Source: an uncultured Acidobacteriota bacterium | Lineage (GTDB): Bacteria; Acidobacteriota; Vicinamibacteria; Vicinamibacterales; CAVVIG01 | Reading direction: 5' to 3' | Assembly (NCBI GenBank): GCA_963724725.1 | Contig: CAVRVT010000001.1 | Location: 93,874 to 157,873, forward strand | DNA length: 64,000 nucleotides | Shown: piece after piece, positions 91 through 58,722 of the stretch | Layout: each line of letters starts with the position of its first letter | How positions within the stretch are numbered: the first letter of the stretch is position 1 | Notes under the pieces: generated by a model | The model's input: the letters and a program-made list of their open reading frames with translations, nothing else | Database searches by the model: none | What the model was told of the DNA's origin: nothing | Translations under genes and position numbers: made by a program

Positions 91-1299
91 GTGCCTCTCA
101 ACGCGTGTGAGCTTGAAATCGATCTGTTCTGCAACGGTGTGCGACTCCTCGAGGACCTGTCCACGTCCGGCGTTCGTGGACCATCGCGGATGCGTGCAGG
201 CCTGGGCTCGGGCCTCGAGGTCGCGATCCCGGCTGCCTCGTCCTTGAAAGACGAGATCTGGGTCAATGTTCCGGTTGTCGAGGCGTTCGCGTCGCGATCA
301 CCGTACGTTCTCGTGTCAAGTGGTCCCGCGGCTTACACCATCGTCGACGAGCGGACGGGCGGCAGCTATCCCGTGCGCTTGCCGCCCCCGCCCGCGTGGT
401 ACTCGAGTCTGACGTCGAACGACATCCAGATGCGGAGCGTCGGCATCCTTCAAGGGACGTATCTCGCGATCTACGTGAACCCCGTCTGCGCGTTCTGGAG
501 CGCTTCGCCTCGGTTGAACTGCCGGTTCTGCACGACGGGCCAGAACGTCGGCGTCAACGAGGCCTCCATCAAACAGTTGAGCGATGTCGTCGAGACCTGC
601 TGGGCGGCGAAGGAGGAATCGGGCATCACGTTCGTGCATCTCAACGGCGGGTTTCAGGGTTCGCACGGTCTGGAACAGATCAAGCCGTTCGTGAAGGCGA
701 TCAAGGAGGAGGTCGGACTTCTCGTGGGCGTGCAGCTGACACCCGAGCGAGATCTGTCCCGCTACGACGAGCTCGTAGATCTGGGCGTTGACCACTTCTC
801 GTTCTGCGTCGAGCTGATGGATGAGGCTTGGTTTGCGCGCATCTGTCCGGGCAAGGCGAAAGTGCACGGGCAGCAACAGTACTTTTCGGCGATGGAACAT
901 TGCGTGAATCTGATGCCACGAGGGGCTGTGTCCGGCGAGGTCATCGCCGGCATCGAGCCTGTCGAGAACACGATTGCGGCCATCGACCGGATTACCGAGC
1001 TCGGAGCGTTTCCGACGGTGTGCATCTTCCGGCCGACCGTTGGCAGCGACATGGAATTCTGGCCGCCTCCGGCGTACGAGGACATGCGGCGGGTGATGGC
1101 ACATGTGTACGACGCGTGTCGGGCGCACTGGCTGCCGATTGGCGCCGCGCCGAACATCGAAGTCAGCCTGGTGGTGAATCCGGATGATGCGGCGCTGCTC
1201 GCGGAACGCAACGTGGGATTCTACGCGTACGAGTTCTATCGACGGATGGCGCGGCTGGCGGCGCGGCCGCTTTTCAACCGGCGGATGCGTCCGTCATGA
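91..1299 (+). CDS. Putative radical-SAM-like Fe-S TIM-barrel protein with non-canonical Cys spacing (C-x10-C-x2-C); start uncertain and the ORF may continue upstream of the window
   Basis: 402-aa ORF. Cys triad in 'VCAFWSASPRLNCRFCTTGQN' and a glycine-rich 'HLNGGFQG' motif reminiscent of the SAM-binding GGE motif. No canonical CX3CX2C. Confidence 0.35.
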   Translation: MPLNACELEIDLFCNGVRLLEDLSTSGVRGPSRMRAGLGSGLEVAIPAASSLKDEIWVNVPVVEAFASRSPYVLVSSGPAAYTIVDERTGGSYPVRLPPPPAWYSSLTSNDIQMRSVGILQGTYLAIYVNPVCAFWSASPRLNCRFCTTGQNVGVNEASIKQLSDVVETCWAAKEESGITFVHLNGGFQGSHGLEQIKPFVKAIKEEVGLLVGVQLTPERDLSRYDELVDLGVDHFSFCVELMDEAWFARICPGKAKVHGQQQYFSAMEHCVNLMPRGAVSGEVIAGIEPVENTIAAIDRITELGAFPTVCIFRPTVGSDMEFWPPPAYEDMRRVMAHVYDACRAHWLPIGAAPNIEVSLVVNPDDAALLAERNVGFYAYEFYRRMARLAARPLFNRRMRPS

Positions 1300-1802: not shown

Positions 1803-2984
1803 TCACTTCCGTCCGTACTTCGCCATGGCCGCTGCCAGCCGATCATAGGGGAGTCCGTGCACTCGATTGCCGTTGATCCCCGTCATCGTCTCAGCCTTTG
1901 TGAGGGCATTGAGGACCGACTCTTCCGTCGCCTCGACGACGGCCTGGAACAGCGGATTCAGAGTGGCGGTGGACTCCGGTGAAATGAATGTCGCGGAGAC
2001 CGTCGGCGACGTGTTTGATTGCGGGACGGTGTTCGCGGTCGAGAAGGCAATGAAGATATCGCCGCTGGTATTGCCTGATGTCGATCCCGTTCGCGCGAGG
2101 CCCAGCGCCGCCCGCGACGCGAGGCGTTCGAGCTGACGCGACGACAGCGGTGCGTCGGTTGCAATGACCACAATCACTGAACCTTCGTGGGCGACGTTGA
2201 TGTCCGCGGCTGGGCCGGCGTCACGGCGGATCTCCGGCACCAGGTCGGGGATTTCGCGACCAACCGGAACACCCGAAACCGTCAGCTCGGGCCGTCGCCC
2301 GAAGTTGGCCTGCACGAGCACGCCGACCGTGTAACCGCCGATGCTGGCCGCCACCTTCCGAGACGATGTGCCAATGCCGCCTTTGAAGCCGTAGCAGACC
2401 ATGCCGGTGCCGCCGCCGACGTTGCCTTCAGCGACTGGTCCACTCTTCGCATCGTCGATCGCCGCGAAGACGTGCGTTTTCTTCACGTGCTGGCCGCGCA
2501 CATCGTTCAGTGTGCCGTCCCAGGTCTCGGCAACGACCGGCAGAAACGCCCAGTCGCGAGATGGATGCCGCTCATTCATGTACGCGATCTCGGCTTCGTG
2601 GACGGTGCCCACGCTTCCCGTGTTCGTGATCAGCACGGGGTGCATGAGCGTTTCGCGATCCCGTATCCAGTGCGTGCCGGTCATCTCGCCGTCGCCGTTC
2701 AAAGTATGTGTCGCGGCGTACACTCCGCTGAACCAGATATCCTTCCGGGGCAGGACTGCCGTCACGCCGGTTCGAACGGGGCCTTCGCCAATCTTCAGCG
2801 CGCCGTTGCCTTGCACAATCGTCGCGTGCCCGACCAGGACACCTTCAACGTCGGTGATCCCATTCAGAGGACCTGGCGGCAGCGTGCCGACGGTGATTCC
2901 GAGATCGCGTGCGCGAACGCGAATTGTCTGTGCGGTGGGCTCAGTGACAAACGTGGCGAGGAGGACAATCAGAAGTCGTTTCAT
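1803..2984 (-). CDS. Peptidase S58 DmpA-family L-aminopeptidase/D-Ala-esterase-amidase, secreted
   Basis: Signal peptide MKRLLIVLLATF. 'NVGGGTGMVCYGFKGGIGTSS' autoproteolytic Gly/Ser region and overall DmpA/ArgJ-fold similarity. Confidence 0.7.
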   Translation of the reverse strand: MKRLLIVLLATFVTEPTAQTIRVRARDLGITVGTLPPGPLNGITDVEGVLVGHATIVQGNGALKIGEGPVRTGVTAVLPRKDIWFSGVYAATHTLNGDGEMTGTHWIRDRETLMHPVLITNTGSVGTVHEAEIAYMNERHPSRDWAFLPVVAETWDGTLNDVRGQHVKKTHVFAAIDDAKSGPVAEGNVGGGTGMVCYGFKGGIGTSSRKVAASIGGYTVGVLVQANFGRRPELTVSGVPVGREIPDLVPEIRRDAGPAADINVAHEGSVIVVIATDAPLSSRQLERLASRAALGLARTGSTSGNTSGDIFIAFSTANTVPQSNTSPTVSATFISPESTATLNPLFQAVVEATEESVLNALTKAETMTGINGNRVHGLPYDRLAAAMAKYGRK

Positions 2985-3013
2985 GGCGAAGTATCGTACC
3001 CCTGTCGGCCGTC

Positions 3014-3595
3014 TTGCCTCACAATACGAACATGATGAACACTCCACGGCTTCCTCGTCGTTCACAGGCCGCATACCGTTTCGCCTCTGCATTCGTCCTG
3101 GGGCTTTCAATGGTCGCCGCCGGAGTATCCGGCCCCAGAGGGGCCAACGGTACCGTCTCGGCCCAGACGGTGAACCCGTGCGCGCTGCTGACGAACGACG
3201 ACGTTCAGCCGCTCGCGGCGAAGGCGAGCGTCGCCGACGGTGTCGCGAGCTCGCTCCCCGCCTTCGGTTCCGCTACCTGTCGATATACGTGGGGTGTCGG
3301 CGCCGACCGCTTCAAACTCGACGTGATCGTCAATGAGGCGTCCCGGATGTTCCCCGGCATGAGTCCGGAGCAGATCAAGCAGCGACTCCAGGGGGCAGTC
3401 AGAGTGGGGACGGCTGATGCGATCATCTCAGATGTTGGCGAAGCCGCTGTGTTCAAGTCCGACTCGCCGCTTTACGCCAATGCGGCCTCATTCCTAAAGG
3501 GCCGGATCCTGGAGGTCCACCTCGACGGATTCGTCGCGCGCGAGAGGAAGGATCAAGTCATTGGACTGCTGAAGTCGGCTGCGTCGCGGCTCTAG
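3014..3595 (+). CDS. Secreted hypothetical protein
   Basis: 193-aa ORF with N-terminal hydrophobic signal-like segment. No family recognised. Confidence 0.4.
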   Translation: MPHNTNMMNTPRLPRRSQAAYRFASAFVLGLSMVAAGVSGPRGANGTVSAQTVNPCALLTNDDVQPLAAKASVADGVASSLPAFGSATCRYTWGVGADRFKLDVIVNEASRMFPGMSPEQIKQRLQGAVRVGTADAIISDVGEAAVFKSDSPLYANAASFLKGRILEVHLDGFVARERKDQVIGLLKSAASRL

Positions 3596-6096
3596 ACCTT
3601 GGAACACGTCGAACGGATCTCCAGGCGCCCGCCTGAGCTGATCTGGACGGCGACATCACCGATCCAGCACGCGCCAGCGGTCATCTTGCCGAGCACGGCG
3701 TACGAGCAGCCATCTTCAGCCGTGAGCGGCAGGCAGACTCTCACGCGCTCGCGGCTGCGGACCGCGACCGTCGTACTGCTTGAACAGATCACCGCGTCGG
3801 GTTCCCGCGCAGGCTTTCGATGGACGCGGAATTCGATCGCCGCGTCGCCGGAGTCGGACCAGGTTTCCAGATTCACCGTGACTGTGCGCGCCGCGCCGCC
3901 CAGCCACACGTAGCCGCTATGAAACAGCGTGCGTTCCCCGCCTCGCGCGAGCAGGCGGGGAATTCCGCGGGCAGGACGGCGCTCGCCGAACAGACCGAAC
4001 GGATCGAGATTCAGTTGCGCGTTTTCGACGAAGGCCCTCCAGAGCCGCACTCCTTGCTCGATGAACCGCCGTGCATGTTCGAGATCCGTCATTGGCAGCA
4101 CGCCGATCGAGGCAGCCGACGCAGGTTTCTTCAGAACAAGGCTCAGGGAACAGAAAGGCAGACCGCTCGTGAGTAGCTGCACGTGCGGTGCTGACCTCAG
4201 AAGCGTGTCCGTTACCGCATCCGCGGGATCGGCGCACAGATCGCCCAGGCGTTCCGGCAAAGGCCGGTTGAGGACGTGGGGCGACACCGCTCCGTCCACT
4301 GCACTGAGCGTCACGAACGAGGCGGCGCCTACCAGCTCGTGCAGAAAGGTTGACGAGAAATAGTAGTTCCCCGGTGTCGGAATGACTTCTTCGCCGAAGT
4401 GGAACTCCGTCGTCAGCACGTAGACCCCGTCATCCTTCAAGACCCGCCGGACTTCGCGAAGGTGCTCGAGAAAGTCGTCGTACTTCCCGATGTGCTCCAT
4501 CGCGCACGACGAGTAACAGAAATCGAACGATGCGTCCTCGAACTCGAGCGCGCGCATGTCCATCCTCTTGACGGTCAGGCGAGACGGATCGATCGCGAAG
4601 GGTGCCACGGCTCTGAGTGTGCAATCTGGATTGTCGGTTCGCGCGCCGTCCCAGGCGCTGCCGGATTCGTACAGGTCGGTCACCGTCAAATGCCCGACGC
4701 GACGAGCGACGGCATACAACAGCCGCTCTTCTCCTCCTCCCATGGAGAGCCCGCGAGTCTTCGCATTCAGGAATCCGAGTGCTTGCAATGCCCTGAAGAT
4801 CTGAGCGAACTCCCACTGCTTCCGATGGAAGCGGGGCTCTTCCTCGAGCTCGTACCGGATGATCCGATCGAACTCGGGATCGAACCAGTCCGTCACGTCG
4901 CACAGCTTGCTGAGGGACCTCACGAGAGCACATCGGCTTCCATTCGGCCGTCGCGTCCGCTCGCGGGAGCCGCTCGGCCCTTCAGATCGAGGCGCGCGAC
5001 GCAATCGAAGACGCGCCAGGTGCGCGCGAGCGGAGGCCTCCCAGTCAGGGCACTGATGCGAGCGCGTCCCGCGCTCGACGAGGTCACGGGCCAGATCGGG
5101 ATGCCTGAGCACGCGGAGCAGCGCATCGGCAATCAATCGCGGTTGCCGCGGGTCCACATAAACGGCAGCGTCGCCGCAGACCTCCGGCAGCGCTCCGGTG
5201 TGCGCGCTGACGACGGGGCAACCACGCGCCATTGCCTCCAGCGGAGCGAACCCGAAGCCTTCGTACAGCGATGGAGACACGAGCACCGAAGCTCGATCGA
5301 GCAGCGCGATCTTCTCGGCTTCGCTGACCGGTCCGAGGACAGTGACTCGGCCGAGCGATCCGTAATCCGCGCCGATCGTGCCCAGATCGACTTGTGACCC
5401 CTCGCCGGCAATGACCAGGCGCACGTCGATCACCCGTTCGATCGTCCGGAACGCCGCGAGCAGTGCCGGCAGATTCTTCGTGGGGTCTGCCCGGCCGATC
5501 CAGAGGATGTACCGGTCGCGATGCTTGTCGGGCTTTGCGCGCTTCGACAGCGGCACCGGGCTGCCGTGACGGATGACGTGCACGCGGGCACTCTCAATGC
5601 CGTAGTACCGGCACACGTCATCCTTGGTCGCCCGAGACGGCGTGACCACGGCGTGCGCACGCCTCAGCGCCCGTCCGAGGTAGTGCCGGTAGAAGTGGTA
5701 CTGCCGCGGGTGCGCACTTCGAAAGAGCCACGGGATCATGTCGTGCACTGTGACAATGCCGCGCCCTCCGGTGATCGGTGCCTCCAGTTGACTGAGACCG
5801 AAGACGAGCGCGTCCCGGTGTTGCCGGGCGAGGTGATTGGCAAAAAGCCATCGGCGCAGGTTTCCGGTCGTTCCACGCGTGGGAGACATCCGTGCGCTGA
5901 CCCACCGGATCGCAGCCCCGGTCGGAATCTCCGATTCCGGAAAGAACTGGCGCGCCTCTTCGTTGAGGACGACCGTCAGCGGCCGATCGACCCGGGCGCC
6001 CCATAGCGCCTTCACCAGGTTGACGCCGTACACGGCGATACCGTCCACGCGCTGGCCGATAGCCGTGGCATTCACGATGAGCGGGCGATCCAGCAT
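3592..6096 (-). CDS. Multidomain glycan-modifying enzyme: GT4 glycosyltransferase + class I SAM methyltransferase + unknown C-terminal domain (about 835 aa)
   Basis: GT4 core 'ILWIGRADPTKN...YEGFGFAPLEAMARGCPVV'. The methyltransferase core 'LSMGGGEERLLY...DASFDFCYSSCAMEHIG...LKDDGVYVLTTEF' follows. Start ATG at 6096 abuts the Wzt stop at 6098. Confidence 0.7.
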   Translation of the reverse strand: MLDRPLIVNATAIGQRVDGIAVYGVNLVKALWGARVDRPLTVVLNEEARQFFPESEIPTGAAIRWVSARMSPTRGTTGNLRRWLFANHLARQHRDALVFGLSQLEAPITGGRGIVTVHDMIPWLFRSAHPRQYHFYRHYLGRALRRAHAVVTPSRATKDDVCRYYGIESARVHVIRHGSPVPLSKRAKPDKHRDRYILWIGRADPTKNLPALLAAFRTIERVIDVRLVIAGEGSQVDLGTIGADYGSLGRVTVLGPVSEAEKIALLDRASVLVSPSLYEGFGFAPLEAMARGCPVVSAHTGALPEVCGDAAVYVDPRQPRLIADALLRVLRHPDLARDLVERGTRSHQCPDWEASARAHLARLRLRRAPRSEGPSGSRERTRRPNGSRCALVRSLSKLCDVTDWFDPEFDRIIRYELEEEPRFHRKQWEFAQIFRALQALGFLNAKTRGLSMGGGEERLLYAVARRVGHLTVTDLYESGSAWDGARTDNPDCTLRAVAPFAIDPSRLTVKRMDMRALEFEDASFDFCYSSCAMEHIGKYDDFLEHLREVRRVLKDDGVYVLTTEFHFGEEVIPTPGNYYFSSTFLHELVGAASFVTLSAVDGAVSPHVLNRPLPERLGDLCADPADAVTDTLLRSAPHVQLLTSGLPFCSLSLVLKKPASAASIGVLPMTDLEHARRFIEQGVRLWRAFVENAQLNLDPFGLFGERRPARGIPRLLARGGERTLFHSGYVWLGGAARTVTVNLETWSDSGDAAIEFRVHRKPAREPDAVICSSSTTVAVRSRERVRVCLPLTAEDGCSYAVLGKMTAGACWIGDVAVQISSGGRLEIRSTCSKV

Positions 6097-6097
6097 G

Positions 6098-6865
6098 TCA
6101 GCCACGGAAAACCCCGCGCCCCTCGCGATAGGCGCCCGCGACCTCCGCAGGGTCACCGTCCATGACGAGGCGGCCGGAATCGAGCCAGACCAGGCGGTCG
6201 CATTGTGTCTGGAGGAACTCGAGGTCGTGCGAAACGAACACCGACGTGACCCCATCAGCCACGAGCGCATGGATACGCGCGAGACATTTCTCCGTGAAGA
6301 ACTCGTCGCCGACGCCGAAAATCTCGTCGACCAGCAAAACATCGGGTTTCACATCGAAGGCGAGCGCGAAGGCGAGACGCGCATACATGCCCGATGAGTA
6401 ATGCTTCACCGGTTCGTCGATGAACCCGTCGATTTCGGCGAACCGGACGATGTCGTCGAGTCGCGCCTCGATGCGTGCGGGAGTCACGCCGAGCAGCGTA
6501 CCGGCGAGGATGCAGTTCTCGGCGCCTGACAGATCCGGCTGGAAACCAACTCCGAGTTCGAGCAAGGGAACGATGCGCCGCGCACGATCGATCGTGACCT
6601 GGCCATGCTGCGGCACGATGACCCGTGCGAGGACGCGCAGCAGCGTCGACTTGCCGGCGCCGTTCCGTCCGATGACGCCGAGTCGCTCTCCCTTCGCGAT
6701 CGACAGTGACACGCCGGAAAGCGCTGCGTGCGCCGCACCTGGATACCCGTGCAACCACGAAGCGACGGTGTACTTCAGGCTGCGCGCTTCGACCGCGTTC
6801 CTGCGGAAGCTGACGCTCACGTCTTTCAGGTCGAACACGGTGGCGCCCGGAATCGTCTGCCTCAT
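6098..6865 (-). CDS. wzt: ABC transporter ATP-binding protein, Wzt/TagH-type (short form, no C-terminal carbohydrate-binding domain)
   Basis: Walker A GRNGAGKST, signature YSSGMYARLAFA, Walker B LLVDE, H-loop SHD. Overlaps the upstream ABC-2 permease gene. Confidence 0.8.
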   Translation of the reverse strand: MRQTIPGATVFDLKDVSVSFRRNAVEARSLKYTVASWLHGYPGAAHAALSGVSLSIAKGERLGVIGRNGAGKSTLLRVLARVIVPQHGQVTIDRARRIVPLLELGVGFQPDLSGAENCILAGTLLGVTPARIEARLDDIVRFAEIDGFIDEPVKHYSSGMYARLAFALAFDVKPDVLLVDEIFGVGDEFFTEKCLARIHALVADGVTSVFVSHDLEFLQTQCDRLVWLDSGRLVMDGDPAEVAGAYREGRGVFRG

Positions 6866-7674
6866 AAATAGAAATACAGACGTGAGCGCGTCCAGCGCAC
6901 CGACGCCACGCCGAGCGCCAAGGCAACCGCGGCGGTTGCCGACGACACCGCCCAGTCCATCAGCGCGGGCCACCGGCCCGCATAGACCGGCTTCTGAAAG
7001 AGCGCCGCGAGATACGTGAGCGGATGCCATGCCAGCAACCGTGCGTGTGCCGAACCCGACGGGAACAGATCCGGATTGAACAGGATCGGCGCGGTGAAGA
7101 ACGCGAGCATGAGCGCGATCTGGACGACCGGGCGGACGTCACGGAAGAAGGTGAAGAGAGTGGCGCAGCACAGGCCCACTCCCAGGGCGGCGACCGCCCA
7201 GGGCAGCACCGCAAGCGGCAGGACGGCGACGTGCATCGTCCAGTGGTCCTTCACGAATGCCAGAATCAGCGCGACCGCCGCGAACGAGAACGCGAACTCG
7301 ACCGACGCGACGATCCATCGGGCGAGCGGGAGCGAGAAAGGTGAAGCCGGCAGCTTCTTCAGCAGCCAGTCGCCTTGCACGATCGCATCGGTGCAGCCGG
7401 ATACGACCTTCTCGAAATACCGCCAGGGCACCAGAGCACTGAACAGGAACACCGCGTAGTCGCTCATGCGCATCCGATTGACGTACGAGAACACCACGCT
7501 CAACACGCCGAGATACAAGAGCGGCTCGAGCAGGTTCCAGATCACGCCAAGTGCGGTATAGCGGTACTTCAGCCGCAGCTGACTCTTGGCGTAGACCCAT
7601 GTGAAACGCATCGATGCCCGGTCCACCCGCACCACTGGATCCGCCGTCAGCCTGCGACGCGCAGCCCGCGCCAC
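6862..7674 (-). CDS. wzm: ABC-2 type polysaccharide export permease (Wzm/TagG family); start codon uncertain
   Basis: Six predicted TM helices. ABC-2 motif region 'LRLKYRYTALGVIWNLLEPLL'. Translationally coupled to wzt. Confidence 0.75.
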   Translation of the reverse strand: MARAARRRLTADPVVRVDRASMRFTWVYAKSQLRLKYRYTALGVIWNLLEPLLYLGVLSVVFSYVNRMRMSDYAVFLFSALVPWRYFEKVVSGCTDAIVQGDWLLKKLPASPFSLPLARWIVASVEFAFSFAAVALILAFVKDHWTMHVAVLPLAVLPWAVAALGVGLCCATLFTFFRDVRPVVQIALMLAFFTAPILFNPDLFPSGSAHARLLAWHPLTYLAALFQKPVYAGRWPALMDWAVSSATAAVALALGVASVRWTRSRLYFYL

Positions 7675-9722
7675 GCGCTCGCCGCCGATGCGTGTACGCT
7701 GCGGACGACGTCTTCAGGAGCAATCTCGCCGAGACAGGCGCTCGGCCGCAGGCCCGTGAGGCCGCACGCCGTCGCCTCGTTCCGCCAGCACGGAATGCAT
7801 GCCAGCGTCTTGCGTGCATCGAGCATCCTGGCGCGCGGATAGTCCTGGCCGCGGACGCGACCGTCAGTCGGGCCGAACAGACCGACGCACGGCAGATCCA
7901 GAGCGCCTGCAAGATGAAAGAACGCCGAATCCGGCGTCACGAGCACGTCGCAGCCGCTGGCGAGTGCGAAAGACCGCCGCAGGTCCAGCCCCTGGACGGG
8001 AATCACACGGGGATTCTCGATGTCAGCCGGCCGCACGCTGCCAAACACCAGCACCGACGCGTCACGGGCGATCGCGTCGATGATCTCCTTCATGTGTGGC
8101 ACGTCGCGGTAGGCTTCGTCAGTGCGCGTCTGGACGCCGACCACGAACGCCCCGTGGAGCCCGCGATTGCCGAAGAACTGATCCCGCCACACCCGTTCCG
8201 CGTCCGAGACCGTGTAACGCGGACGCCGATCCATCGCCCTCAGCCGTGCGCCCGTGATGCCCAGCGCGCGGGCGAACAGCTCGATGCGGTTCGACCTTAC
8301 GGCGGGCGCCGTCCGGCTTTCGACGCGCGCCGCCGGACAGTCCGTCAGGTTGAGCCACTCTCTATATGCCCCCGGATCGAAGTCGCCGTCGATGTCCAAC
8401 AACCTGACGTCGTCGTTTCCTTCGAATAGCGGGAAGAAACGATGTGGGATGGCGAGGACAACCGGTCGCTCGGCTCGCATGGCTTTCAATGCGCGAAGAC
8501 CGGGCGTCATCATCAGGAAGTCGCCGACGCCGCCCATGGCCCGTGTGACCAGCGTCGCCTCGATCGGTCGCGGCACCGTCGCTCGTCCGCGGGCGGCGTG
8601 CGAGCGAAGCCCGTACTGCCGAACGTATGCGCTGCCGGCAGCGCATTTCTCGAGGAATCGCGCGATGTCCCAGCCGGCGTGCCGCGCGGCGCCCAGGCAC
8701 GTCCAGTAGCTCAGCCAGAGCATCCTGTCCGCCACTGACAGTTCGCGGCTCGCGAGCAGGCGCGGCATCCCCCGGTGCGCCCGCCGCATGAGATCCACCA
8801 CCGCCCGGCGTTCGTCGGCGTCGGTGTGGAATACGCGCAGGCGCTCGACGAGGAGGCGTTTGAAGAGCGACGCGCGCCGCGTCTGGAGCGACACTGTGCC
8901 GAGCGCATCGAAAAGCGCCGGGATGGCGTTTCGATCCGCGATCCGATCGAGGCGGCGTGACGCAGCGAGCAGCGTCGCGTACGCCGCCTCCAGGTCTCCG
9001 AGGAGCGCGTGCGCACGAGACATGCGGAGTCGAACCCAGGGCGCGATCTCGGGAAACGCGTTCACGCCCAGCGTCAGAGCCAGATTGCAGGTGTCGTTCG
9101 CATCCGTGAAACGCGAGGCACGCAGCAGTTCATCCGACCAGTCGAGTAGGGTTCGAAACAGCTCCCGCGGAAAAGCGCTCCGGCTGCGGCAATCGGACAC
9201 GAATGTCTGGACGACTGATTCGAGGAACTCGTGTTCCCGGCGCAACTCACCCGCGGCGCTGCCTGTGAGCGCGTGCGCTCGAGCGAGGCCGCCCAGCACT
9301 ACTTGACGCAAGACCTCCGGATCGGTGTGGCGCGCACGCTCGGCCGGTGTCAGCGTTTCGAAGAGGGCCCGGACGTGCTCGGCGTGACCGTGAAACGCGA
9401 GAACGTGGAGATGTTCTGCGGTCGGGCGCACACCGAACAGTTGAGACGGAAGACGGTTCGAACGAGCCGGACTGCCGATGGACGCTGGTTCGATCACGGT
9501 CGCTCCGAGACGACTCGTGAGACGACGCTCGAGCGTCGGGCCGGCGCGGCGGCAATCCGACAGAACGTAATTGTCGCCGACGATATTCGAAATACCTGGA
9601 CGTCGATATGAAGCCGCGCCAGGTCCGTGGCGGCGTAATTCAGAACAAATCGGTTCACAGACACGCTCCGGGTTCTCCAGCGCGTGCGTGCGAGGCAAGC
9701 TTCGTACCCGAGGAGTCGGCAA
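7647..9722 (-). CDS. Glycosyltransferase family 9 (heptosyltransferase-like) with about 350-aa N-terminal helical extension; start uncertain
   Basis: C-terminal half carries GT9 motifs 'TRAMGGVGDFLMMTPGLRALK', 'CDVLVTPDSAFFHLAGALDLPCVGLFGPTD' and 'ACIPCW'. Confidence 0.6.
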   Translation of the reverse strand: MPTPRVRSLPRTHALENPERVCEPICSELRRHGPGAASYRRPGISNIVGDNYVLSDCRRAGPTLERRLTSRLGATVIEPASIGSPARSNRLPSQLFGVRPTAEHLHVLAFHGHAEHVRALFETLTPAERARHTDPEVLRQVVLGGLARAHALTGSAAGELRREHEFLESVVQTFVSDCRSRSAFPRELFRTLLDWSDELLRASRFTDANDTCNLALTLGVNAFPEIAPWVRLRMSRAHALLGDLEAAYATLLAASRRLDRIADRNAIPALFDALGTVSLQTRRASLFKRLLVERLRVFHTDADERRAVVDLMRRAHRGMPRLLASRELSVADRMLWLSYWTCLGAARHAGWDIARFLEKCAAGSAYVRQYGLRSHAARGRATVPRPIEATLVTRAMGGVGDFLMMTPGLRALKAMRAERPVVLAIPHRFFPLFEGNDDVRLLDIDGDFDPGAYREWLNLTDCPAARVESRTAPAVRSNRIELFARALGITGARLRAMDRRPRYTVSDAERVWRDQFFGNRGLHGAFVVGVQTRTDEAYRDVPHMKEIIDAIARDASVLVFGSVRPADIENPRVIPVQGLDLRRSFALASGCDVLVTPDSAFFHLAGALDLPCVGLFGPTDGRVRGQDYPRARMLDARKTLACIPCWRNEATACGLTGLRPSACLGEIAPEDVVRSVHASAASAWRGLRVAG

Positions 9723-10095
9723 CGAATCGCGAGATGTTGGATCGAGGCGCCGGATTTCCGGCGCATCGTGATGGCGCAGCCGCTGCGCGAGTTCAGTATT
9801 TTGGAACAGCGCCGCTAACTGGGAAGCTGACTGGCAACCATGACGTTCACGATGAAGCGCGCGTAGCTCGCGAGCGCCCAGCTCCGGCGGCCGACGAGCA
9901 GCTCGTCACAGCTCCGGTGAGCTGCAGGCCCACAACCCGTCGGCGGCATCGCTTGGTCGCATCCCCTGCGCAGGTGGCCCTCACGAGCGTCACCGGCCAA
10001 TCCGCGTTCGCGAATGGCGCGCACCAGCCCGGCTTTGCCGCCGAACGCTACTCGGACCTTTCGCTGACTTCGCCCTCGGAAGTACTCAGACACCG

Positions 10096-10593
10096 TTACA
10101 ACCATCGTCGGACCCGCGCCCGGTATTGGTCGTAAGCCCTCCCAAACCGACGCGCGAGAAACGCTTCCTCCCTCAACACCACGCCGTAGTGCGTCAGCGC
10201 CACGACCGCCGGCAGCAACGCGAGCGACCACAGCTTGCCCAGCACCAGGGCGAGGCCCGCGTACGCGATCGAGCCGAAGAGATACATGGGATTCCTGGTG
10301 ACGCGGAACGGACCGCTGTCGACCAGGACAACCGGGGTCGCCGCGTTATGAATAGGCGTTCCGACCTTCTTCATCGTGGCCACCATCCAGGCGAACCCTG
10401 CCGCGCCAAGACAGAAAAGAATGCCGCCAAGAGCCCGCGCGCCAACGTGGAGCGGGCCGGAGATCCAGGGAGACGTCGGCCACATCGCCTCCAGTAAGAC
10501 ACCGAGGAGAAATCCGGTCAGGGGGATCAGGGGCGGGAAGACCACTACTTGAGAGTGCTCGAGTGCCGGAGGGCCCGTTTGCTGGTCCACCAT
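10096..10593 (-). CDS. Isoprenylcysteine carboxyl methyltransferase (ICMT)/phospholipid methyltransferase family membrane protein
   Basis: C-terminal 'VTRNPMYLFGSIAYAGLALVLG...EEAFLARRFGRAYDQYRARVRRWL', typical of the ICMT/PEMT family. ATG at 10593 lies within a conserved leader motif with RBS GGAGAC. Confidence 0.65.
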   Translation of the reverse strand: MVDQQTGPPALEHSQVVVFPPLIPLTGFLLGVLLEAMWPTSPWISGPLHVGARALGGILFCLGAAGFAWMVATMKKVGTPIHNAATPVVLVDSGPFRVTRNPMYLFGSIAYAGLALVLGKLWSLALLPAVVALTHYGVVLREEAFLARRFGRAYDQYRARVRRWL

Positions 10594-10642
10594 TCTGGTC
10601 TCCTGAATCATAGAGGTACTTGAGGTATGCCCGGCGCGCACT
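10584..10642 (-). promoter_or_regulatory. Conserved about 58-nt leader element, copy A, overlapping RBS and start of the ICMT-like gene
   Basis: Plus strand ggtccaccattctggtctcctgaatcatagaggtacttgaggtatgcccggcgcgcact is about 80% identical to 15128-15183. Confidence 0.5.
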
Positions 10643-10985
10643 CAGTGATGCTCGTACGGCGTCGCCCTCGGCAGTCGATCCGAGAGCTTCCAGGCAAAGA
10701 ACGCATCCGCGCTTCGTTCGCTCCACATGCGGATCACCGTCGATTCCGGCGACGATTTCGTCTTCGTCGAACCAGTCGGGCCGTCCGGCGCTGATGTCCG
10801 CGTGCGGGCAGTGCGCGTGTCATCCACGAGCGAGTACCTGCCGTATTCCGCTGGTGCAAGCCGTCGAACGGGTGCTGCCAAGGACGACCGTCGCATCGAT
10901 TGCGAAGATACCGGTGTGCTCCATGACTCCCGAGCGAGTCGAGCGAGCGCTCAAGGCGGCGCCGGATTCGTCCGCGCGCTCGCTT

Positions 10986-12137
10986 TCAACGCGCGCTTGG
11001 GTGAAGGCGCTGTCCTTGACAGCCGGGGCCTGAAAGGCCAAGGCCCGGCCCGGTCAGCATCGGGTACGCGGCCACATCGAGCACGCCGCCAGCGCCGAAC
11101 ATCAACGGAGGCTCACAGACATCGCGCGCGAGCAGAAACGTTCCAAACGCCCCTTCCTGCGCGACCAGCGCGCCGCCGGCAGCCCGGGCGACGGGTAGCG
11201 CCGCGCGTGTGAGGATGCTCGTCTCGCCCACCTGGGCGCCGACAATCACGCCAATGCCGGCGGCTCGTGCGGCATCGACGACCTCCAGCGAACGTATGAT
11301 GCCGCCCATCTTCGACACGCGCAGGTTGATCAGCCATTGGGACCGTGGGCCTGGAAGTCGTGACACCTGCTCGCGCCGCACGCAGCTCTCGTCCAGGATC
11401 ACCGGGCAGTTCAGCGCGCGCGAGAGGTCGGACAGTTCTGCGTACCGGTCCCTGCCGATCGGCTCTTCGACCGCGAAGAACTCATGGCCAAGCTGCTGCA
11501 GGGCGGTCCGGGCTTCTGCTCCGCTTCCCCAGACGTTGTTGGCATCCGCCCGAACACGGGCCGAGGCCGCCGGCCATTGCTCGCAGACGGTCAACTTCTC
11601 TCGATCGCGTTCGTGGTCTCCGGACAGCTTGACCTTGAAATCTCTGAAGCCGAACGACCAGTACCGTTCGGCCATCCCGTGGAACGCGCCCGGTGAGGCG
11701 TCCCCCAGAACAGCCGTGTAGTGAAAATTGCCGGCGAGCGCCGGCAGCGACAAGAGCGATTCAACGGTTGCACCGCTGGATCGGCCGAAGAGATCGAGCA
11801 GCGCCAGCTCGAGCGCGCACCACGCCGCCGGATGGCGATCGATTTCGCCTCGGTGCGAAATCACCCACGCGCGAAGCGATTCGACGTCGTCGATCTCTCG
11901 ACAGATCGTGGCCCGGTGCTGCTCGAGGAACGTTCGCGCCGAATCGACGGTTTCTCCGGTGACGTACGCGCGCGGGCACGATTCGCCGCGGCCCGCCGTC
12001 CCATCGGCCGCCAGGGCTTCGACCAGCACCGTCTCGGTTTCGGCCCGCTCGGCGGACGCGTGGCGGAATGCCGCTTTGAAGGGAATCCGGAGCTCGGTGA
12101 ACTGGAGCCGCTCGACGCGAACGCTAGCCGACGGCAT
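10986..12137 (-). CDS. Enolase-superfamily enzyme (mandelate racemase/muconate lactonising enzyme family; N-acyl amino acid racemase or dipeptide epimerase-like)
   Basis: 383-aa ORF with MR/MLE fold features: 'FKVKLSGD', 'VRADANNVW', 'ILDESC' and metal-ligand region 'EEPIGRDRYAELSDL'. Confidence 0.6.
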   Translation of the reverse strand: MPSASVRVERLQFTELRIPFKAAFRHASAERAETETVLVEALAADGTAGRGESCPRAYVTGETVDSARTFLEQHRATICREIDDVESLRAWVISHRGEIDRHPAAWCALELALLDLFGRSSGATVESLLSLPALAGNFHYTAVLGDASPGAFHGMAERYWSFGFRDFKVKLSGDHERDREKLTVCEQWPAASARVRADANNVWGSGAEARTALQQLGHEFFAVEEPIGRDRYAELSDLSRALNCPVILDESCVRREQVSRLPGPRSQWLINLRVSKMGGIIRSLEVVDAARAAGIGVIVGAQVGETSILTRAALPVARAAGGALVAQEGAFGTFLLARDVCEPPLMFGAGGVLDVAAYPMLTGPGLGLSGPGCQGQRLHPSAR

Positions 12138-13767
12138 ACCGCTCGAGGGGCAACGCCAGTTGCCGTTTGTACTGGAGGACGACCGGCTTGAACTGCCCCT
12201 CGCGCTGCCCGGCCCGCACGCAGGCGATCTTGTAAGCCTCTCCTGCTCCCGACTTGAGCCACGTGATCGTCAAAGGCGCGAGCCGGCCGCTCGCGCGCTT
12301 GCTGTGGTATTCGATGTTCAATTCCCCGAGGCGCTCGTCAACAGCCGCCGCGAGCTCCGCGGATGCGTGTGTCGGCGCGTCGTCTTCGAGGAAGAGGCTG
12401 TACAGCGAACGCTCCTCGTCCGCGACGAGCATGAAGAACGGAGCCGCGAGACGGTAGCGTCGAGCGGCGCCCTGAACGGCCTCGATGACCTGTGCCTCGT
12501 ACAGTTTTTCTCCTGTGAGGTTGGTGACGCCCCTGCCCTTCTGAACGAACCGAAGGAGCGGCGTCTCCCGGAAACGGCCCGTCACCTCGACGATGTCGTT
12601 CATGAAATAACGGTAGAGGCCCGCGGCAGTCGTCACGATGACGTAGTACCGCCTTCCGTCCACGAGGGCTTCGAGCCCTGCGCAGTCGCGCCGGCCGTTG
12701 TCCCAGTCATCCTGCTCGACGAACTCGAAGAAGGAATGATGAAGCGGCGGCAGGCCGGATGGCGTCTCCACGTCGAGCGCGATCGTGCCGCGGCATTCGG
12801 TGGACTGATATCCGAGCTCCATCACTTTCGTGCCCGCCGGCAGCGTCTGACGAAGCTTCTGAAGCGCGATCCCGCAGCTTCCGCCGGTCCACGTCGTGAC
12901 GAGCCTGATCTGGGGCCAGAGGTCCGCGAAAGTGAGCCTTGCGGTGCTGCGCAACTCCGACGCGCGCGAGCGGTCGGCCCTGACGTGATCCATCACGATC
13001 GTCCGCGTCTCGACGTCGAGCGCCTCGATCTCCGGGAACGATCCCGTCTCGAGGGAGCGCGCCAGGACGTCTCTCCGCTCGTTCAAGACGTCGAGCAGCC
13101 GCACGAACGTCGAGGGATTCGGAGATCCCAGATACGTGATGTTCCGGAAGGCCAGCGCGAGCCGGAGTATCACCAGGTACTTGGTGTCGTAGTCGGCGAT
13201 CGCCGACACCTTCGGCGGCAGCACGAATCGCGATCGCAGCGCCGACGGAAGCGACTCGTACAGATGCCCGGACACGGACCCGACGGTGTGCCCGGAGTCG
13301 AGGCGGCCTTCGACCGCAGACCCCATGATGCCGAGCGCCTTGCCCGAAAACGCCTCGGGACACGCGCGGTACTGCAGGTAGGTGAACAAGGCCTGCTCGG
13401 CGCGATGAATGCGCAAGGCACTTGGCGAAATGGGAATGTATTTGGGCTTGCCGGTCGAGCCGCTCGTCTGGGCGTAGAACACCGGGGCTTCCGTCGTCAG
13501 CGACGCCGCGCCGGTGCATCGCTGCCGCTCGATGTGAGCGCGCAGTGCGTCGTAGTCCTGAACCGGCACGCGCGCGCGGTAGTCGTCGGCCGATTTGATG
13601 CCGGCGAAGTTGTGCTCGGTTCCGAACTCCGTGTGCCGATTGGCACCGAGGATGTGGCGAAGGGCCTGGGCCTGGGCGACGTCAGGCCGCTCGGCGTGCC
13701 GGGCGACGGGCGCCCAGTACCGGACGGCGCACGCGAGCATCCCGCCGCGCAGCGCCCACGCCCGCAT
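12124..13767 (-). CDS. GH3-family acyl-acid amido synthetase-like adenylating enzyme
   Basis: GH3 signatures 'LRHILGANRHTEFG' and 'YAQTSGSTGKPKYIP' in a protein of about 547 aa. Start overlaps the stop of the hydroxylase gene (TAATG). Confidence 0.7.
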   Translation of the reverse strand: MRAWALRGGMLACAVRYWAPVARHAERPDVAQAQALRHILGANRHTEFGTEHNFAGIKSADDYRARVPVQDYDALRAHIERQRCTGAASLTTEAPVFYAQTSGSTGKPKYIPISPSALRIHRAEQALFTYLQYRACPEAFSGKALGIMGSAVEGRLDSGHTVGSVSGHLYESLPSALRSRFVLPPKVSAIADYDTKYLVILRLALAFRNITYLGSPNPSTFVRLLDVLNERRDVLARSLETGSFPEIEALDVETRTIVMDHVRADRSRASELRSTARLTFADLWPQIRLVTTWTGGSCGIALQKLRQTLPAGTKVMELGYQSTECRGTIALDVETPSGLPPLHHSFFEFVEQDDWDNGRRDCAGLEALVDGRRYYVIVTTAAGLYRYFMNDIVEVTGRFRETPLLRFVQKGRGVTNLTGEKLYEAQVIEAVQGAARRYRLAAPFFMLVADEERSLYSLFLEDDAPTHASAELAAAVDERLGELNIEYHSKRASGRLAPLTITWLKSGAGEAYKIACVRAGQREGQFKPVVLQYKRQLALPLERYAVG

Positions 13768-14633
13768 TACCGGCTGAAGGGAGCGCGCATCAGCGCCCAG
13801 AAGGACTTCGGATAGGCGGGGTCCTGCAGTCCGAGCGCCTGCACGGCGCGCTCCGTCGGCAGGAACCAGGTTCCGAACACGAGGTCCCAGATGATCACGG
13901 TGTTGCCGTAGTTCGCGTTGGACTCGCGAGGGACCCTCGAGTGGTGCCATCGATGGGTTTCAGCGCTTCCGACGATGTAGTTGAGAACGCCGTAGCGGAT
14001 GTCGATGTTGCAATGCTGGAAGAATCCGTTCGACGCGTACGCGATGTAGTAGAGCGAGAGCACCGTCGGATCGACCGCCATCAACACGAACGGCACGCTA
14101 TCGAGCATCATCTGCAGGACTTTTTCGAGCAGGTGAAATCGCGCCGTATTCAGCCAGTACAACTGCTCCACCGAATGGTGGACGGAATGCAGGCGCCACA
14201 GCGTGTCGCTCTCGTGCGACGCGCGATGCAGCCAGTACCGGAGGAAGTCAACGACCAGAACCATCAGCACCGCCTGGAGCCAGATGGGCCAGGCATGGGG
14301 CCACAGCGCCGCGATGGGCAGGTTGAGCGCCCGCGCCGGCTTAATTAGTGCGTACGCGAACACGAAACCCACGAGCGGCGGGAATGCGAGCTGCACGGCA
14401 GTCATGAACTCGAGATCGGTTTTGACCTCGCTGACCGGCGGACGCCAGTCGCCTCGATATGGGAACCTCCACTCGAGCGCCATCACCAGCATCGCTGCGA
14501 GGACGACCGGCACGTACGTGCTGACAACGAGCGGCACGCCGAGACCGCGCATCAGCGCGAAAACGACGAATGTCGTGATCATCACGGCGGGATAGTGCAG
14601 GAACGGTAACCACGCCGCGCGTTCCGCTGGCAT
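13767..14633 (-). CDS. Fatty acid hydroxylase/sterol desaturase superfamily membrane enzyme
   Basis: Histidine boxes 'HRASHESD', 'HSVHHS' and 'HRWHHS'. Multiple TM helices. Confidence 0.7.
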   Translation of the reverse strand: MPAERAAWLPFLHYPAVMITTFVVFALMRGLGVPLVVSTYVPVVLAAMLVMALEWRFPYRGDWRPPVSEVKTDLEFMTAVQLAFPPLVGFVFAYALIKPARALNLPIAALWPHAWPIWLQAVLMVLVVDFLRYWLHRASHESDTLWRLHSVHHSVEQLYWLNTARFHLLEKVLQMMLDSVPFVLMAVDPTVLSLYYIAYASNGFFQHCNIDIRYGVLNYIVGSAETHRWHHSRVPRESNANYGNTVIIWDLVFGTWFLPTERAVQALGLQDPAYPKSFWALMRAPFSR

Positions 14634-14641
14634 ACCGACCT

Positions 14642-15088
14642 TTATCGGACGGAGGATCGCGCGGCCCCAAGGCTCCAGTGGAAATGCCCGTACACCAGCA
14701 CCCAGCCGGCAAGAACGAGATGGAACATCGTCGGGACCGGGCTGGCAAACCAGCGCGATTGACTGAGGATAGTCAGGCCGAGGACGAGCCGCGCCAGCAT
14801 GCTCACGAAATACACGCCCCCGAAAGCCAGCGCGGCCACGCCAACCGCGTGTCGTGGCCTGACCGCTCCAATACTGAAGCGATAGTTCGTCCAGCCCATG
14901 GCGACGAGAATCATCAGCTGCAAGGCGAGCAACACACCGTAGGGAAGGGTCGCGCTGTGCCAGGACTCGAACGCCGGCAGGCCGGTGTTGACGACCAGCG
15001 AGAGCGGCTGCGCGACAACGCGAAAGGCAAAGAGACCGAACAGCAGCCATCCAGCGATGGCATGACGATCCGAAGGGACGGTTCGCAT
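14642..15088 (-). CDS. Integral membrane protein (148 aa, 4 TM), first gene of the minus-strand cluster
   Basis: Hydrophobic ORF with ATG at 15088, directly upstream of the hydroxylase gene. Confidence 0.5.
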   Translation of the reverse strand: MRTVPSDRHAIAGWLLFGLFAFRVVAQPLSLVVNTGLPAFESWHSATLPYGVLLALQLMILVAMGWTNYRFSIGAVRPRHAVGVAALAFGGVYFVSMLARLVLGLTILSQSRWFASPVPTMFHLVLAGWVLVYGHFHWSLGAARSSVR

Positions 15089-21891: not shown

Positions 21892-21940
21892 CGTCAGCTC
21901 GCGCGTCGACGTGTCAGACGGCAGCGGCGCCTGCAAGACG

Positions 21941-22420
21941 TCAACCGATCTTGTTGGCAAGGAGGTCGTACTTGAAGAACACGGCCGCATCCGGCGAGCC
22001 GTCCGCCTTCTGCGGGAAGTACTCGACGTCGACCTTCGCGAACGCGAGGCTCACGGTCTCGGCGTACGGCTGATCGTTGGCGCCGGCGTGCGTGACCGAC
22101 GTAATGATGATGTCGTTCATCTTGACGACAAGGAACTCGTGCGGGCTCTTGCCCGCTTTGCGGTGTGTGATGGTCGCGTCCTTCAGGTGCGTCCCGGTCG
22201 CGCACGCCTGCAGGAGAAGCGGGGATGCTCTGTCGATGGTGTGAACTATCGCGAGATCCTTGAACGTCGCCTTCCCGGCGCCTCCGCCGCCGCCGGTCGG
22301 GCTCGAGCTCGTGCTCGACACGCCCCAAGAAAACGACAGAACCTCGATCTCGTCCTTGTGTTTCGCGTCAAGCGATTCGCCCTTGATATCTCCGATCTTG
22401 GCGAAAATGTCTGTGGCCAT
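21941..22420 (-). CDS. hcp: Type VI secretion system tube protein Hcp (orphan copy)
   Basis: 'MATDIFAKIGDIKGESLDAKHKDEIEVLSFSWGVS...GGGGGAGK...VDVEYFPQKADGS' closely matches the Hcp1 family consensus. Confidence 0.85.
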   Translation of the reverse strand: MATDIFAKIGDIKGESLDAKHKDEIEVLSFSWGVSSTSSSPTGGGGGAGKATFKDLAIVHTIDRASPLLLQACATGTHLKDATITHRKAGKSPHEFLVVKMNDIIITSVTHAGANDQPYAETVSLAFAKVDVEYFPQKADGSPDAAVFFKYDLLANKIG

Positions 22421-43641: not shown

Positions 43642-43717
43642 TGGTGGACCAGACCGGGATCGAACCGGTGACCTCATGAATGCCATTCATGCGCGCTCCC
43701 AACTGCGCTACTGGCCC
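43642..43717 (-). tRNA. tRNA-Ala (anticodon GGC) with encoded CCA
   Basis: The minus-strand sequence GGGCCAGTAGCGCAGTTGGGAGCGCGCATGAATGGCATTCATGAGGTCACCGGTTCGATCCCGGTCTGGTCCACCA has cloverleaf pairing, including the Ala identity pair G3:U70. Its anticodon loop is ATGGCAT. Confidence 0.85.
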
Positions 43718-58606: not shown

Positions 58607-58722
58607 CGAAGACCGGAAATTGTACTGCGCTTTTCGAGCGCGGCGGAGAATCTCACGCCAGCTCGACCAGTCGCCCGCCAGCCCAAACGGAGTATCGGAC
58701 CTGACGATTTTGTCAGGTCCGG

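What the first reader, a model, noticed from the sequence alone, without database searches (positions are those of the whole stretch)
3592..9722. ABC-transporter-dependent glycan locus with an unusual GT4-methyltransferase-unknown-domain fusion
Wzm/Wzt genes are flanked by a GT9 (heptosyltransferase-like) protein carrying a 350-aa N-terminal extension and by an 835-aa fusion of a GT4 glycosyltransferase, a class I SAM methyltransferase and a 300-aa C-terminal domain of unknown family. In characterised ABC-dependent O-antigen systems, chain length is set by terminal modification (for example the WbdD kinase-methyltransferase). Here the terminating methyltransferase appears fused to a glycosyltransferase, and the Wzt lacks the carbohydrate-binding domain that normally recognises the cap. 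This suggests a different coupling of termination to export.
Basis: partly seen in the sequence, partly recalled or inferred. Interest (0 to 1): 0.6.

Follow-up and report, generated by a model that had tools for sequence, protein, structure and literature searches.

The report
Conserved glycan-export cassette; fusion is an artefact
The "unusual fused enzyme" comes from three single-base insertions/deletions and is two separate genes in a 99.6%-identical contig, but the locus itself is a five-gene sugar-polymer export cassette, uncharacterised in what I searched and conserved across several bacterial phyla.

Summary

The headline GT4-MT fusion is not a real architecture. The single ORF 3592-6096 exists only because of three 1-nt indels at window 5071, 5045 and 5014, inside a 65-nt patch of the GT4 3' end. 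A 99.6%-identical contig (L044) and the other Acidobacteriota relatives with intact genes encode a separate GT4 (~391 aa) and MT (~443 aa), with a GTGA stop/start overlap. The window still carries that stop and start.

Five modules are conserved: GT9L (TPR-like N-domain plus GT9), MT, Wzm, NBD-only Wzt and GT4. All five occur in 26 of 33 genome loci recovered with the MT protein; three more are cut by contig ends. They span Acidobacteriota, Ignavibacteriota/Bacteroidota, Calditrichota and Nitrospirota, with unrelated flanking genes.

Most likely this is an ABC-transporter-dependent pathway for a methylated glycan. It lacks both hallmarks of capped systems, a Wzt-CBM and a coiled-coil terminator. 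Interest is moderate to low.

The parts
7647..9497 (-). GT9L: 616-aa glycosyltransferase. N-terminal ~300-aa helical, weakly TPR-like domain (about 8583-9497) plus a GT9 catalytic domain with a C-terminal four-Cys motif (about 7647-8582).
   Evidence: Pfam PF01075 at 33.6 bits, gathering cut-off 22. At least 218 homologous clusters of ~618 aa, aligned full length. The GD and DSxxH...GP motifs align to WaaF 1psw and to 3tov. Weak TPR hits in 3 of 26 members. Start set by alignment to P0243.
6862..7611 (-). Wzm, ABC-2 permease, 249 aa
   Evidence: Pfam ABC2_membrane at 28 bits, cut-off 26.9. NCBIfam galactan Wzm/RfbD and KpsM hits are below cut-off. 50-89% identical to the cassette Wzm in all related loci. 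The exact sequence is found on L044.
6098..6865 (-). Wzt, nucleotide-binding domain only, 255 aa, no C-terminal carbohydrate-binding module. ATGA overlap with the wzm stop.
   Evidence: Pfam ABC_tran. Best NCBIfam hits are galactan Wzt/RfbE and TagH, below cut-off. Homologues are 247-255 aa. Coordinates.
4920..6096 (-). GT4 glycosyltransferase gene. It would encode 391 aa if the three indels are removed. Its native TGA stop is at 4920-4922.
   Evidence: Pfam Glycos_transf_1 and Glyco_transf_4. Reconstruction gives 391 aa ending ...MEADVLS*, the same ending as the 391-aa GT4 of L044. Homologues are 374-409 aa.
5014..5077 (-). Noisy patch that creates the fused ORF: +1 nt at 5071, -1 nt at 5045, +1 nt at 5014, plus four substitutions relative to L044.
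   Evidence: Alignments to L039 and L040 and to the 99.6%-identical L044. These are the only indels not a multiple of three in the 2.5-kb gene pair.
3592..4923 (-). MT-CBM gene, 443 aa from GTG 4923 (GTGA overlap with the GT4 stop). Class I SAM methyltransferase (about 4150-4923), connecting helix (about 4021-4083), jelly-roll CBM-like domain (about 3634-4014).
3592..6096 (-).
   Evidence: the ORF listing and translation. Its residues ~362-392 are GT4 3'-end DNA read in the MT frame.

Best explanation
The region holds a compact operon-like cassette of five genes, not four: GT9L, wzm, wzt, a GT4 gene and a separate MT-CBM gene.

The single GT4::MT ORF in this window is a sequence-level artefact, or at most a very recent strain-level frameshift. 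It comes from three single-base indels in the last ~90 nt of the GT4 gene.

Inferred function: the cassette is a self-contained ABC-transporter-dependent pathway for a methylated glycan.
- The two cytoplasmic GT-B enzymes, inverting GT9L and retaining GT4, build the glycan on a lipid carrier at the inner face of the membrane. The carrier would be primed by an enzyme encoded elsewhere.
- The methyltransferase is held on the nascent chain by its own jelly-roll CBM-like domain and O-methylates it.
- The NBD-only Wzm/Wzt pump exports the product without cap recognition by the transporter itself.

Shown here: gene structure, domain identities, SAM and GT9 motifs, the fold of the C-terminal domain, and conservation of the cassette.

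Inferred only: the lipid carrier, the sugar donors, polymer versus oligosaccharide, and whether methylation is terminal or internal.
For: Artefact:
- The indels at gene positions 1029, 1057 and 1087 are the only frame-changing differences from L039 and L040.
- L044, 99.6% identical over 6.75 kb, lacks all three. It encodes GT4 (391 aa) and MT (443 aa) with a GTGA overlap.
- L044 in turn has a 1-nt insertion that breaks GT9L, which is intact in the window. This pattern fits assembly indel errors.
- The genes are separate in L006, L007, L030, L039 and L040/41.
- The native stop and start are retained in the window.
- No fused homologue appeared among the hits scored from a 5.8-billion-protein database, apart from a fragment from the frameshift-ridden L001.

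Cassette:
- All five modules are present in 26 of 33 genome loci found with the MT-CBM profile. Three more are cut by contig ends.
- The same cassette is in L003-L005 and L039-L044.
- Flanking genes differ between loci.

Domains.
Against: - No read data were available. A real strain-specific frameshift that yields a fused protein cannot be excluded.
- L001 also reads as fused, through a different indel.
- No initiating phosphoglycosyltransferase, sugar-nucleotide genes or ligase lie in or next to the cassette. The nearest PF00953 protein is 47 kb away.
- Only two GTs are encoded, so a polymer is not proven.
- GT9 enzymes characterised so far act on lipid A-Kdo/heptose or on proteins, not on polyprenol-linked polymers (my own background knowledge).
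Confidence: 0.7

Rival explanations
1. The fusion is genuine in this strain. A compensated frameshift plus a third indel produced a functional bifunctional GT4-methyltransferase, a Rosetta-stone fusion of two translationally coupled partners.
For: The ORF is uninterrupted in the window. L001 also reads through, via an independent indel 10 nt before the stop. GT4-MT fusions exist in distant members of this MT family, P0195, P0237 and P0238, and in P. syringae (PMC7820976).
Against: A 99.6%-identical contig has two genes. The three indels and four substitutions sit in one 65-nt patch, while the rest of the 6.75 kb differs by ~1 substitution per 350 nt. The fused frame replaces the conserved GT4 C-terminus and disrupts the conserved RGRAR..(L/F)(T/S)WE motif. 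L001 is riddled with frameshifts in every cassette gene. An open alternative frame of 39 codons is expected by chance about 37% of the time at this GC content (my estimate).
Confidence: 0.12
2. The MT-CBM is a true chain terminator of a new type. It caps the non-reducing end with a methyl group, and its own CBM, instead of a Wzt-CBM, recognises or hands over the capped chain. Termination is thus coupled to export in trans.
For: Wzt has no CBM, while the MT carries a conserved CBM-like jelly roll in all cassette loci. The MT gene is translationally coupled to GT4 in Acidobacteriota and to GT9L in the Ignavibacteriota/Bacteroidota-type loci. A CBM-like Ig domain was noted in the Klebsiella O7 terminator ORF6 (PMC11231755).
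Confidence: 0.2
3. The cassette does not make a polymer. It builds and flips a short methylated oligosaccharide or glycolipid, for example a core-like or lipid-anchored glycan started by the GT9 enzyme on a membrane lipid acceptor.
For: Only two GTs are encoded and no initiating enzyme. GT9 enzymes normally glycosylate membrane-embedded lipid A-Kdo (background knowledge; motifs). Sequence conservation across phyla is very high (Wzm 50-60%, Wzt 52-65%), unlike hypervariable O-antigen loci.
Against: By my background knowledge, the characterised Wzm/Wzt-type ABC-2 exporters handle polyprenol-linked polymers or lipid-linked capsules. The best NCBIfam matches here are to the galactan, teichoic-acid and KpsM exporters. 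A CBM-like domain fits better with a polymeric ligand.
Confidence: 0.2
4. GT9L is a protein glycosyltransferase, of the TibC/BAHT or TPR-GT type, and the cassette modifies a protein rather than a lipid-linked glycan.
For: GT9L has a TPR-like N-domain. A separate TPR gene lies upstream in the Ignavibacteriota/Bacteroidota-type loci. The four-Cys motif is shared with GT9-like autotransporter heptosyltransferases (background knowledge).
Against: The cassette always contains an ABC-2 Wzm/Wzt exporter and no candidate protein substrate. The Cys motif is also typical of LPS heptosyltransferases.
Confidence: 0.05

Closest known systems
Pseudomonas syringae CPA 'TET operon' (wzm, wzt, WbdD-like O-methyltransferase, WbdA GT4; PMC7820976)
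   Same: Adjacent wzm/wzt, a SAM methyltransferase and a GT4 enzyme in one operon. The GT and MT genes are reported fused in some isolates.
   Different: There Wzt carries a C-terminal CBM-type domain and the GT has two GT4 modules. There is no GT9L, no jelly roll on the MT is described, and the operon sits inside a rhamnose-synthesis locus and is hypervariable.
E. coli O8/O9a and Klebsiella O3/O5/O7/O12/O4 capped O-antigen systems (WbdD, WbbB, ORF6-O7; PMC3482155, PMC11231755)
   Same: ABC-transporter-dependent assembly with a SAM methyltransferase as a possible non-reducing-end modifier. ORF6-O7 also contains a predicted CBM-like domain and is fused to GT modules.
   Different: Both hallmarks are missing here: no CBM on Wzt and no coiled-coil ruler. 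There is no kinase domain. At sequence level the MT matches only generic class I MTs in the PDB, and no WbdD structure appears among the listed hits.
Klebsiella pneumoniae O2a-type uncapped systems (NBD-only Wzt; described in PMC3560663)
   Same: Wzt consists of the NBD only, so export itself may end chain growth.
   Different: Those systems have no dedicated modifying methyltransferase with a CBM-like domain and no GT9-family enzyme.
LPS heptosyltransferases WaaC/WaaF (CAZy GT9; PDB 1psw, 2h1h, 3tov)
   Same: The catalytic half of GT9L matches PF01075. It keeps the N-terminal G-D motif, the DSxxH...GP nucleotide-binding motif and the C-terminal Cys cluster.
   Different: GT9L has a conserved ~300-aa TPR-like N-domain and is always encoded with Wzm/Wzt, GT4 and MT-CBM rather than with LPS-core genes. 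Similarity is limited: 33.6 bits to Pfam, and below all NCBIfam heptosyltransferase cut-offs.

Membership tests
ABC-transporter-dependent (Wzm/Wzt) glycan assembly pathway | ABC-2 permease plus cognate ATPase encoded together with cytoplasmic glycosyltransferases | tested here: met
   Pfam ABC2_membrane (28 bits, cut-off 26.9), ABC_tran, GT4 and GT9 in one co-directional cluster with overlapping stops and starts. Conserved in 26 complete genome loci.
ABC-transporter-dependent (Wzm/Wzt) glycan assembly pathway | Polyprenol-phosphate initiating transferase and a downstream ligase or acceptor | tested here: inconclusive
   None lies in or next to the cassette. A PF00953 + CoA_binding_3 protein lies at 56822-58861, 47 kb away. 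The ligase was not searched for.
Capped-glycan systems (WbdD/WbbB type) | Carbohydrate-binding module fused to the C-terminus of Wzt | tested here: not met
   Wzt is 255 aa, NBD only. Homologues are 247-255 aa.
Capped-glycan systems (WbdD/WbbB type) | Terminator protein with an extended coiled-coil molecular ruler | tested here: not met
   The AF2 model of MT-CBM shows only one helix of ~21 residues between the MT and the jelly roll.
Capped-glycan systems (WbdD/WbbB type) | Enzyme that modifies the non-reducing terminus (methyl, phosphate, Kdo) | not testable with these tools
   An apparently active SAM MT is present. Its substrate position can only be found by glycan analysis.
Class I SAM-dependent methyltransferase | Rossmann fold with glycine-rich motif I, acidic residue after strand 2, and D/M motif for adenine | tested here: met
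   Invariant G55, G57, E59, T75-D76, M114-D115-M116 and D127-F128 in 23 homologues. Pfam Methyltransf_11 E = 6e-11. Foldseek probability 1.0 to MitM, TleD and AtmM.
CAZy GT9 (heptosyltransferase family) | PF01075 match above gathering score, with the N-terminal GD and C-terminal DSxxH...GP motifs | tested here: met
   33.6 bits against cut-off 22. All 26 aligned homologues match PF01075. The motifs align to WaaF 1psw and to 3tov.
CAZy GT9 (heptosyltransferase family) | ADP-heptose donor and lipid A-Kdo/heptose acceptor | not testable with these tools
   All NCBIfam heptosyltransferase I/II/III models score far below their cut-offs. Donor and acceptor are unknown.
Carbohydrate-binding module (jelly-roll CBMs such as CBM22, CBM4, CBM6) | Beta-sandwich/jelly-roll fold with demonstrated glycan binding | tested here: inconclusive
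Bifunctional GT4-methyltransferase fusion proteins | GT4 and MT domains encoded in one conserved reading frame | tested here: not met
   The frame is joined only by three 1-nt indels that are absent from a 99.6%-identical contig and from the other relatives with intact genes.

The most novel reading that the evidence does not exclude
The cassette GT9L / MT-CBM / Wzm / NBD-only Wzt / GT4, plus a small TPR protein in the Ignavibacteriota/Bacteroidota-type loci, defines a third organisation of ABC-transporter-dependent glycan assembly. It is phylogenetically widespread. A GT9-family enzyme takes part in chain synthesis. The glycan-recognition module sits on the modifying methyltransferase instead of on the transporter, so that chain completion is sensed by the enzyme and not by Wzt.
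Probability: 0.2. Interest if true: 0.6.

Novelty: new variant of a known kind. Interest (0 to 1): 0.33.

Why it matters
As submitted, the finding should not be pursued. The fusion is a frameshift artefact, and GT-MT fusions beside wzm/wzt are already described.

What remains useful is a compact five- to six-gene module conserved across phyla in uncultured soil and sediment bacteria. It departs from both textbook models of O-antigen ABC export. Unlike the capped model, it has no CBM on Wzt and no coiled-coil ruler. Unlike the uncapped model, it has a dedicated methyltransferase that carries its own CBM-like domain.

Because it is small and self-contained, it could be expressed heterologously. 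That would test whether substrate recognition can reside on the modifying enzyme, and whether GT9 enzymes can work on exported glycans.

The case is also a warning: indel errors in metagenome assemblies can create apparent domain fusions.

Tried and rejected
- Anti-phage defence or 'conflict' system: PADLOC gave only generic MT and ABC-ATPase similarity. The Pfam GT4-conflict hit overlaps the generic GT4 models.
- MSMEG_0565/0568-type cluster: the GT4 and the upstream radical SAM protein score far below the NCBIfam cut-offs, and the radical SAM gene is not conserved next to the cassette.
- WbdD homology: sequence and profile searches of the PDB, and Foldseek, returned only generic class I MTs. 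No WbdD entry appears among the hits listed.
- Codon-position GC content of the 111-nt linker was too short to discriminate between frames.
- The exact window Wzt is not on record. The exact Wzm look-up succeeded.
- Mann et al. 2019 (Glycobiology) is not held in the library.
- Two literature searches for the cassette itself found nothing.
- Promoter scan: none found in 3000-10800. Terminator-like sites did not exceed the shuffled controls.
Full report
**1. What is at the coordinates**

The minus strand of 3592-9722 carries a run of co-directional ORFs.

- Pfam assigns the long ORF GT4 domains (aa 19-355) and a Methyltransf_11 domain (aa 451-561).
- The next ORF matches ABC_tran and the next ABC2_membrane.
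- The last ORF matches Glyco_transf_9, in its C-terminal part only.
- NCBIfam places the ATPase and permease nearest to the galactan Wzt/Wzm, TagH and KpsM exporters, all below the curated cut-offs.

Alignment with relatives gives these gene limits:

| Gene | Window coordinates | Length | Notes |
|---|---|---|---|
| GT9L | 7647-9497 | 616 aa | GTG start |
| Wzm | 6862-7611 | 249 aa | |
| Wzt | 6098-6865 | 255 aa | ATGA overlap with the wzm stop |
| Long ORF | 3592-6096 | 834 aa | ATG one base after the wzt stop |

Its lengths are somewhat off: 616 aa rather than 691 for GT9, and about 175 aa rather than 300 for the unknown C-terminal region.

**2. The fusion is not real**

A search with the full ORF found no fused homologue. 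It found only 460-aa stand-alone proteins that cover the MT plus the C-terminal domain, and a 590-aa fragment. An exhaustive HMMER search with the MT plus C-terminal part found about 25 full-length relatives, all 407-489 aa.

The closest relatives carry the same cassette with GT4 (390-397 aa) and MT (431-437 aa) as separate genes. Their stop and start overlap as GTGA. These relatives are:
- L039, with GT9L 80% and MT 81% identical to the window;
- L040/L041, from Vicinamibacterales.

L006, L007 and L030 also have two genes.

A nucleotide alignment of the window gene pair with L039 and L040 shows exactly three indels that are not multiples of three. They lie at gene positions 1029 (+1), 1057 (-1) and 1087 (+1), which are window 5071, 5045 and 5014.

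Read in the native frame, the window still encodes the conserved GT4 C-terminus ...VFDCVARLDLKGRAAPASGRDGRMEADVLS. It also keeps the TGA stop (4920-4922) and the overlapping GTG start of the MT at 4923.

The exact Wzm protein of the window occurs on ENA contig ERZ25039520:contig_19616 (L044). L044 is 99.6% identical to window 3861-10611.
- L044 has GT4 (391 aa) and MT (443 aa) as two genes.
- In this gene pair it differs from the window by those same three indels, plus four substitutions in the same 65-nt patch.
- Conversely, L044 has a 1-nt insertion that breaks GT9L at window 8614, where the window is intact.

Mutually exclusive frameshifts in conserved genes between near-identical sequences point to assembly indel errors. 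At most they are strain-level lesions.

L001 also reads as fused. It does so through a different indel, and every cassette gene in L001 is frameshifted.

I put about 85-90% on 'two genes in the organism'.

**3. A conserved cassette**

A scan of one genome per species with the MT-CBM profile returned 33 loci. tblastn of the window modules against them gave:
- 26 loci with all five modules: GT9L N-domain and catalytic domain, MT, C-terminal domain, Wzm, Wzt and GT4;
- three more loci that are cut by contig ends;
- four alphaproteobacterial loci that share only the MT domain.

There are two gene orders.
- GT9L-MT-Wzm-Wzt-GT4 is found in Ignavibacteriota, 'Bacteroidota', Calditrichota, Nitrospirota and 'Chlorobi' MAGs. 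It is usually preceded by a ~230-aa TPR gene.
- GT9L-Wzm-Wzt-GT4-MT is found in Acidobacteriota, including this window.

The MT gene overlaps its upstream neighbour in both orders. Genes flanking the cassette are unrelated between loci.

Identity to the window across phyla is high:

| Module | Identity to the window |
|---|---|
| Wzm | 50-60% |
| Wzt | 52-65% |
| GT9 catalytic half | 44-55% |
| MT | 45-55% |
| GT4 | 31-42% |
| C-terminal domain | 21-32% |

The window itself is most likely from a Vicinamibacterales-like acidobacterium.

**4. The parts**

*Methyltransferase.* Motif I (G55, G57, E59), the post-I acidic residue (T75-D76), M114-D115-M116 and D127-F128 are invariant in 23 sequences. 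The AF2 model (pLDDT 86) is a class I MT. It is followed by one ~21-residue helix and a seven- to eight-strand sandwich. Foldseek finds only generic small-molecule and sugar O- and C-methyltransferases.

*GT9L.* There are at least 218 clusters of ~618 aa. The alignment shows an invariant TRAMGGxGD motif, PDSxFxHLAxAL..P...LFGPxDG, and a C..PCWRN...C..T..R.S.C cysteine cluster. The first two align to the WaaF and 3tov motifs. The N-terminal ~300 aa are helical, with weak TPR hits in a few members.

*Wzt.* It is NBD-only.

*Elsewhere in the window.* No initiating transferase or sugar-nucleotide genes lie nearby. A PF00953 protein lies 47 kb away.

**5. Mechanism**

The best-supported reading is an ABC-transporter-dependent pathway for a methylated glycan.
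- GT9L (inverting) and GT4 (retaining) are the only glycosyltransferases.
- The MT is tethered to the chain by its own CBM-like domain.
- The exporter lacks cap recognition.

Kelly et al. 2024 (PMC11231755) state that every characterised terminated O-polysaccharide has a CBM on Wzt. They also describe a coiled-coil ruler in each terminator characterised there. Both features were tested here and are absent. The cassette is therefore not a member of the capped class.

It resembles the NBD-only Klebsiella O2a class (summarised in PMC3560663) but has an added dedicated methyltransferase.

The following remain untested:
- whether the methyl group is a cap handed over in trans, or a decoration;
- whether the product is a polymer or a short glycolipid.

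**6. Comparison and novelty**

GT-MT fusions beside wzm/wzt are already reported:
- Klebsiella O7 ORF6 (PMC11231755);
- distant members of this same MT family that are true GT4-MT multidomain proteins.

So even a real fusion would not be new.

[quoted passage not shown] That makes the conserved MT-jelly-roll pairing mildly notable.

Two literature searches found no description of this cassette. All carriers found are uncultured MAGs.

I rate the locus a new variant of a known kind and the headline feature an artefact. Overall interest is about 0.33.

Noticed in passing
window 3861-10611 versus L044 (ENA ERZ25039520:contig_19616): The two sequences are 99.6% identical and differ by 5 single-base indels in my MAFFT alignment (BLAST counts 7 gaps). 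Four of the five break conserved ORFs in one sequence or the other: window 5071, 5045 and 5014, and L044 at window 8614. This suggests an indel-prone assembly, so other ORF structures in this window may be affected too.
   Followed up: partly
window 56822-58861 (-): 680-aa protein with Glycos_transf_4 (PF00953, WecA/MraY-type polyprenol-phosphate transferase) plus CoA_binding_3. It is a candidate initiating enzyme for lipid-linked glycans, 47 kb from the cassette.
   Followed up: no
window 60010-60106 (+) and 43642-43717 (-): A tRNA-Sec (anticodon TCA; Rfam 60.2 bits) and a tRNA-Ala(GGC). The tRNA-Sec implies selenoprotein synthesis in this organism.
   Followed up: no
window 10986-15050 (-): Three adjacent genes: an enolase-superfamily MR_MLE protein (10986-12137), a GH3-family acyl-acid amido synthetase-like protein (12124-13950) and a membrane fatty-acid-hydroxylase-family protein (13767-15050). 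This is an unusual trio for a bacterium.
   Followed up: no
window 10096-10641 (-) and 1803-3110 (-): A PEMT/ICMT-family membrane methyltransferase lies about 600 nt upstream of GT9L, and an S58 (DmpA-type) peptidase lies downstream of the cassette. In L039 the same two genes are adjacent to each other and upstream of the cassette, so the neighbourhood has been rearranged.
   Followed up: partly
window 20599-22050 (-): 484-aa protein that combines a multi-repeat TPR domain with a class I methyltransferase domain.
   Followed up: no
L003, L009-L033, L042/L043, just upstream of GT9L: A ~230-aa TPR protein is a sixth conserved gene in 20 of the Ignavibacteriota/Bacteroidota/Calditrichota/Nitrospirota loci. 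It is absent from the Acidobacteriota loci and from the window.
   Followed up: partly
window 91-1299 (+): 402-aa radical SAM protein that matches NCBIfam 'variant_rSAM' (187 bits, cut-off 125). It also matches the MSMEG_0568 family weakly. It is not conserved next to the cassette in relatives.
   Followed up: no
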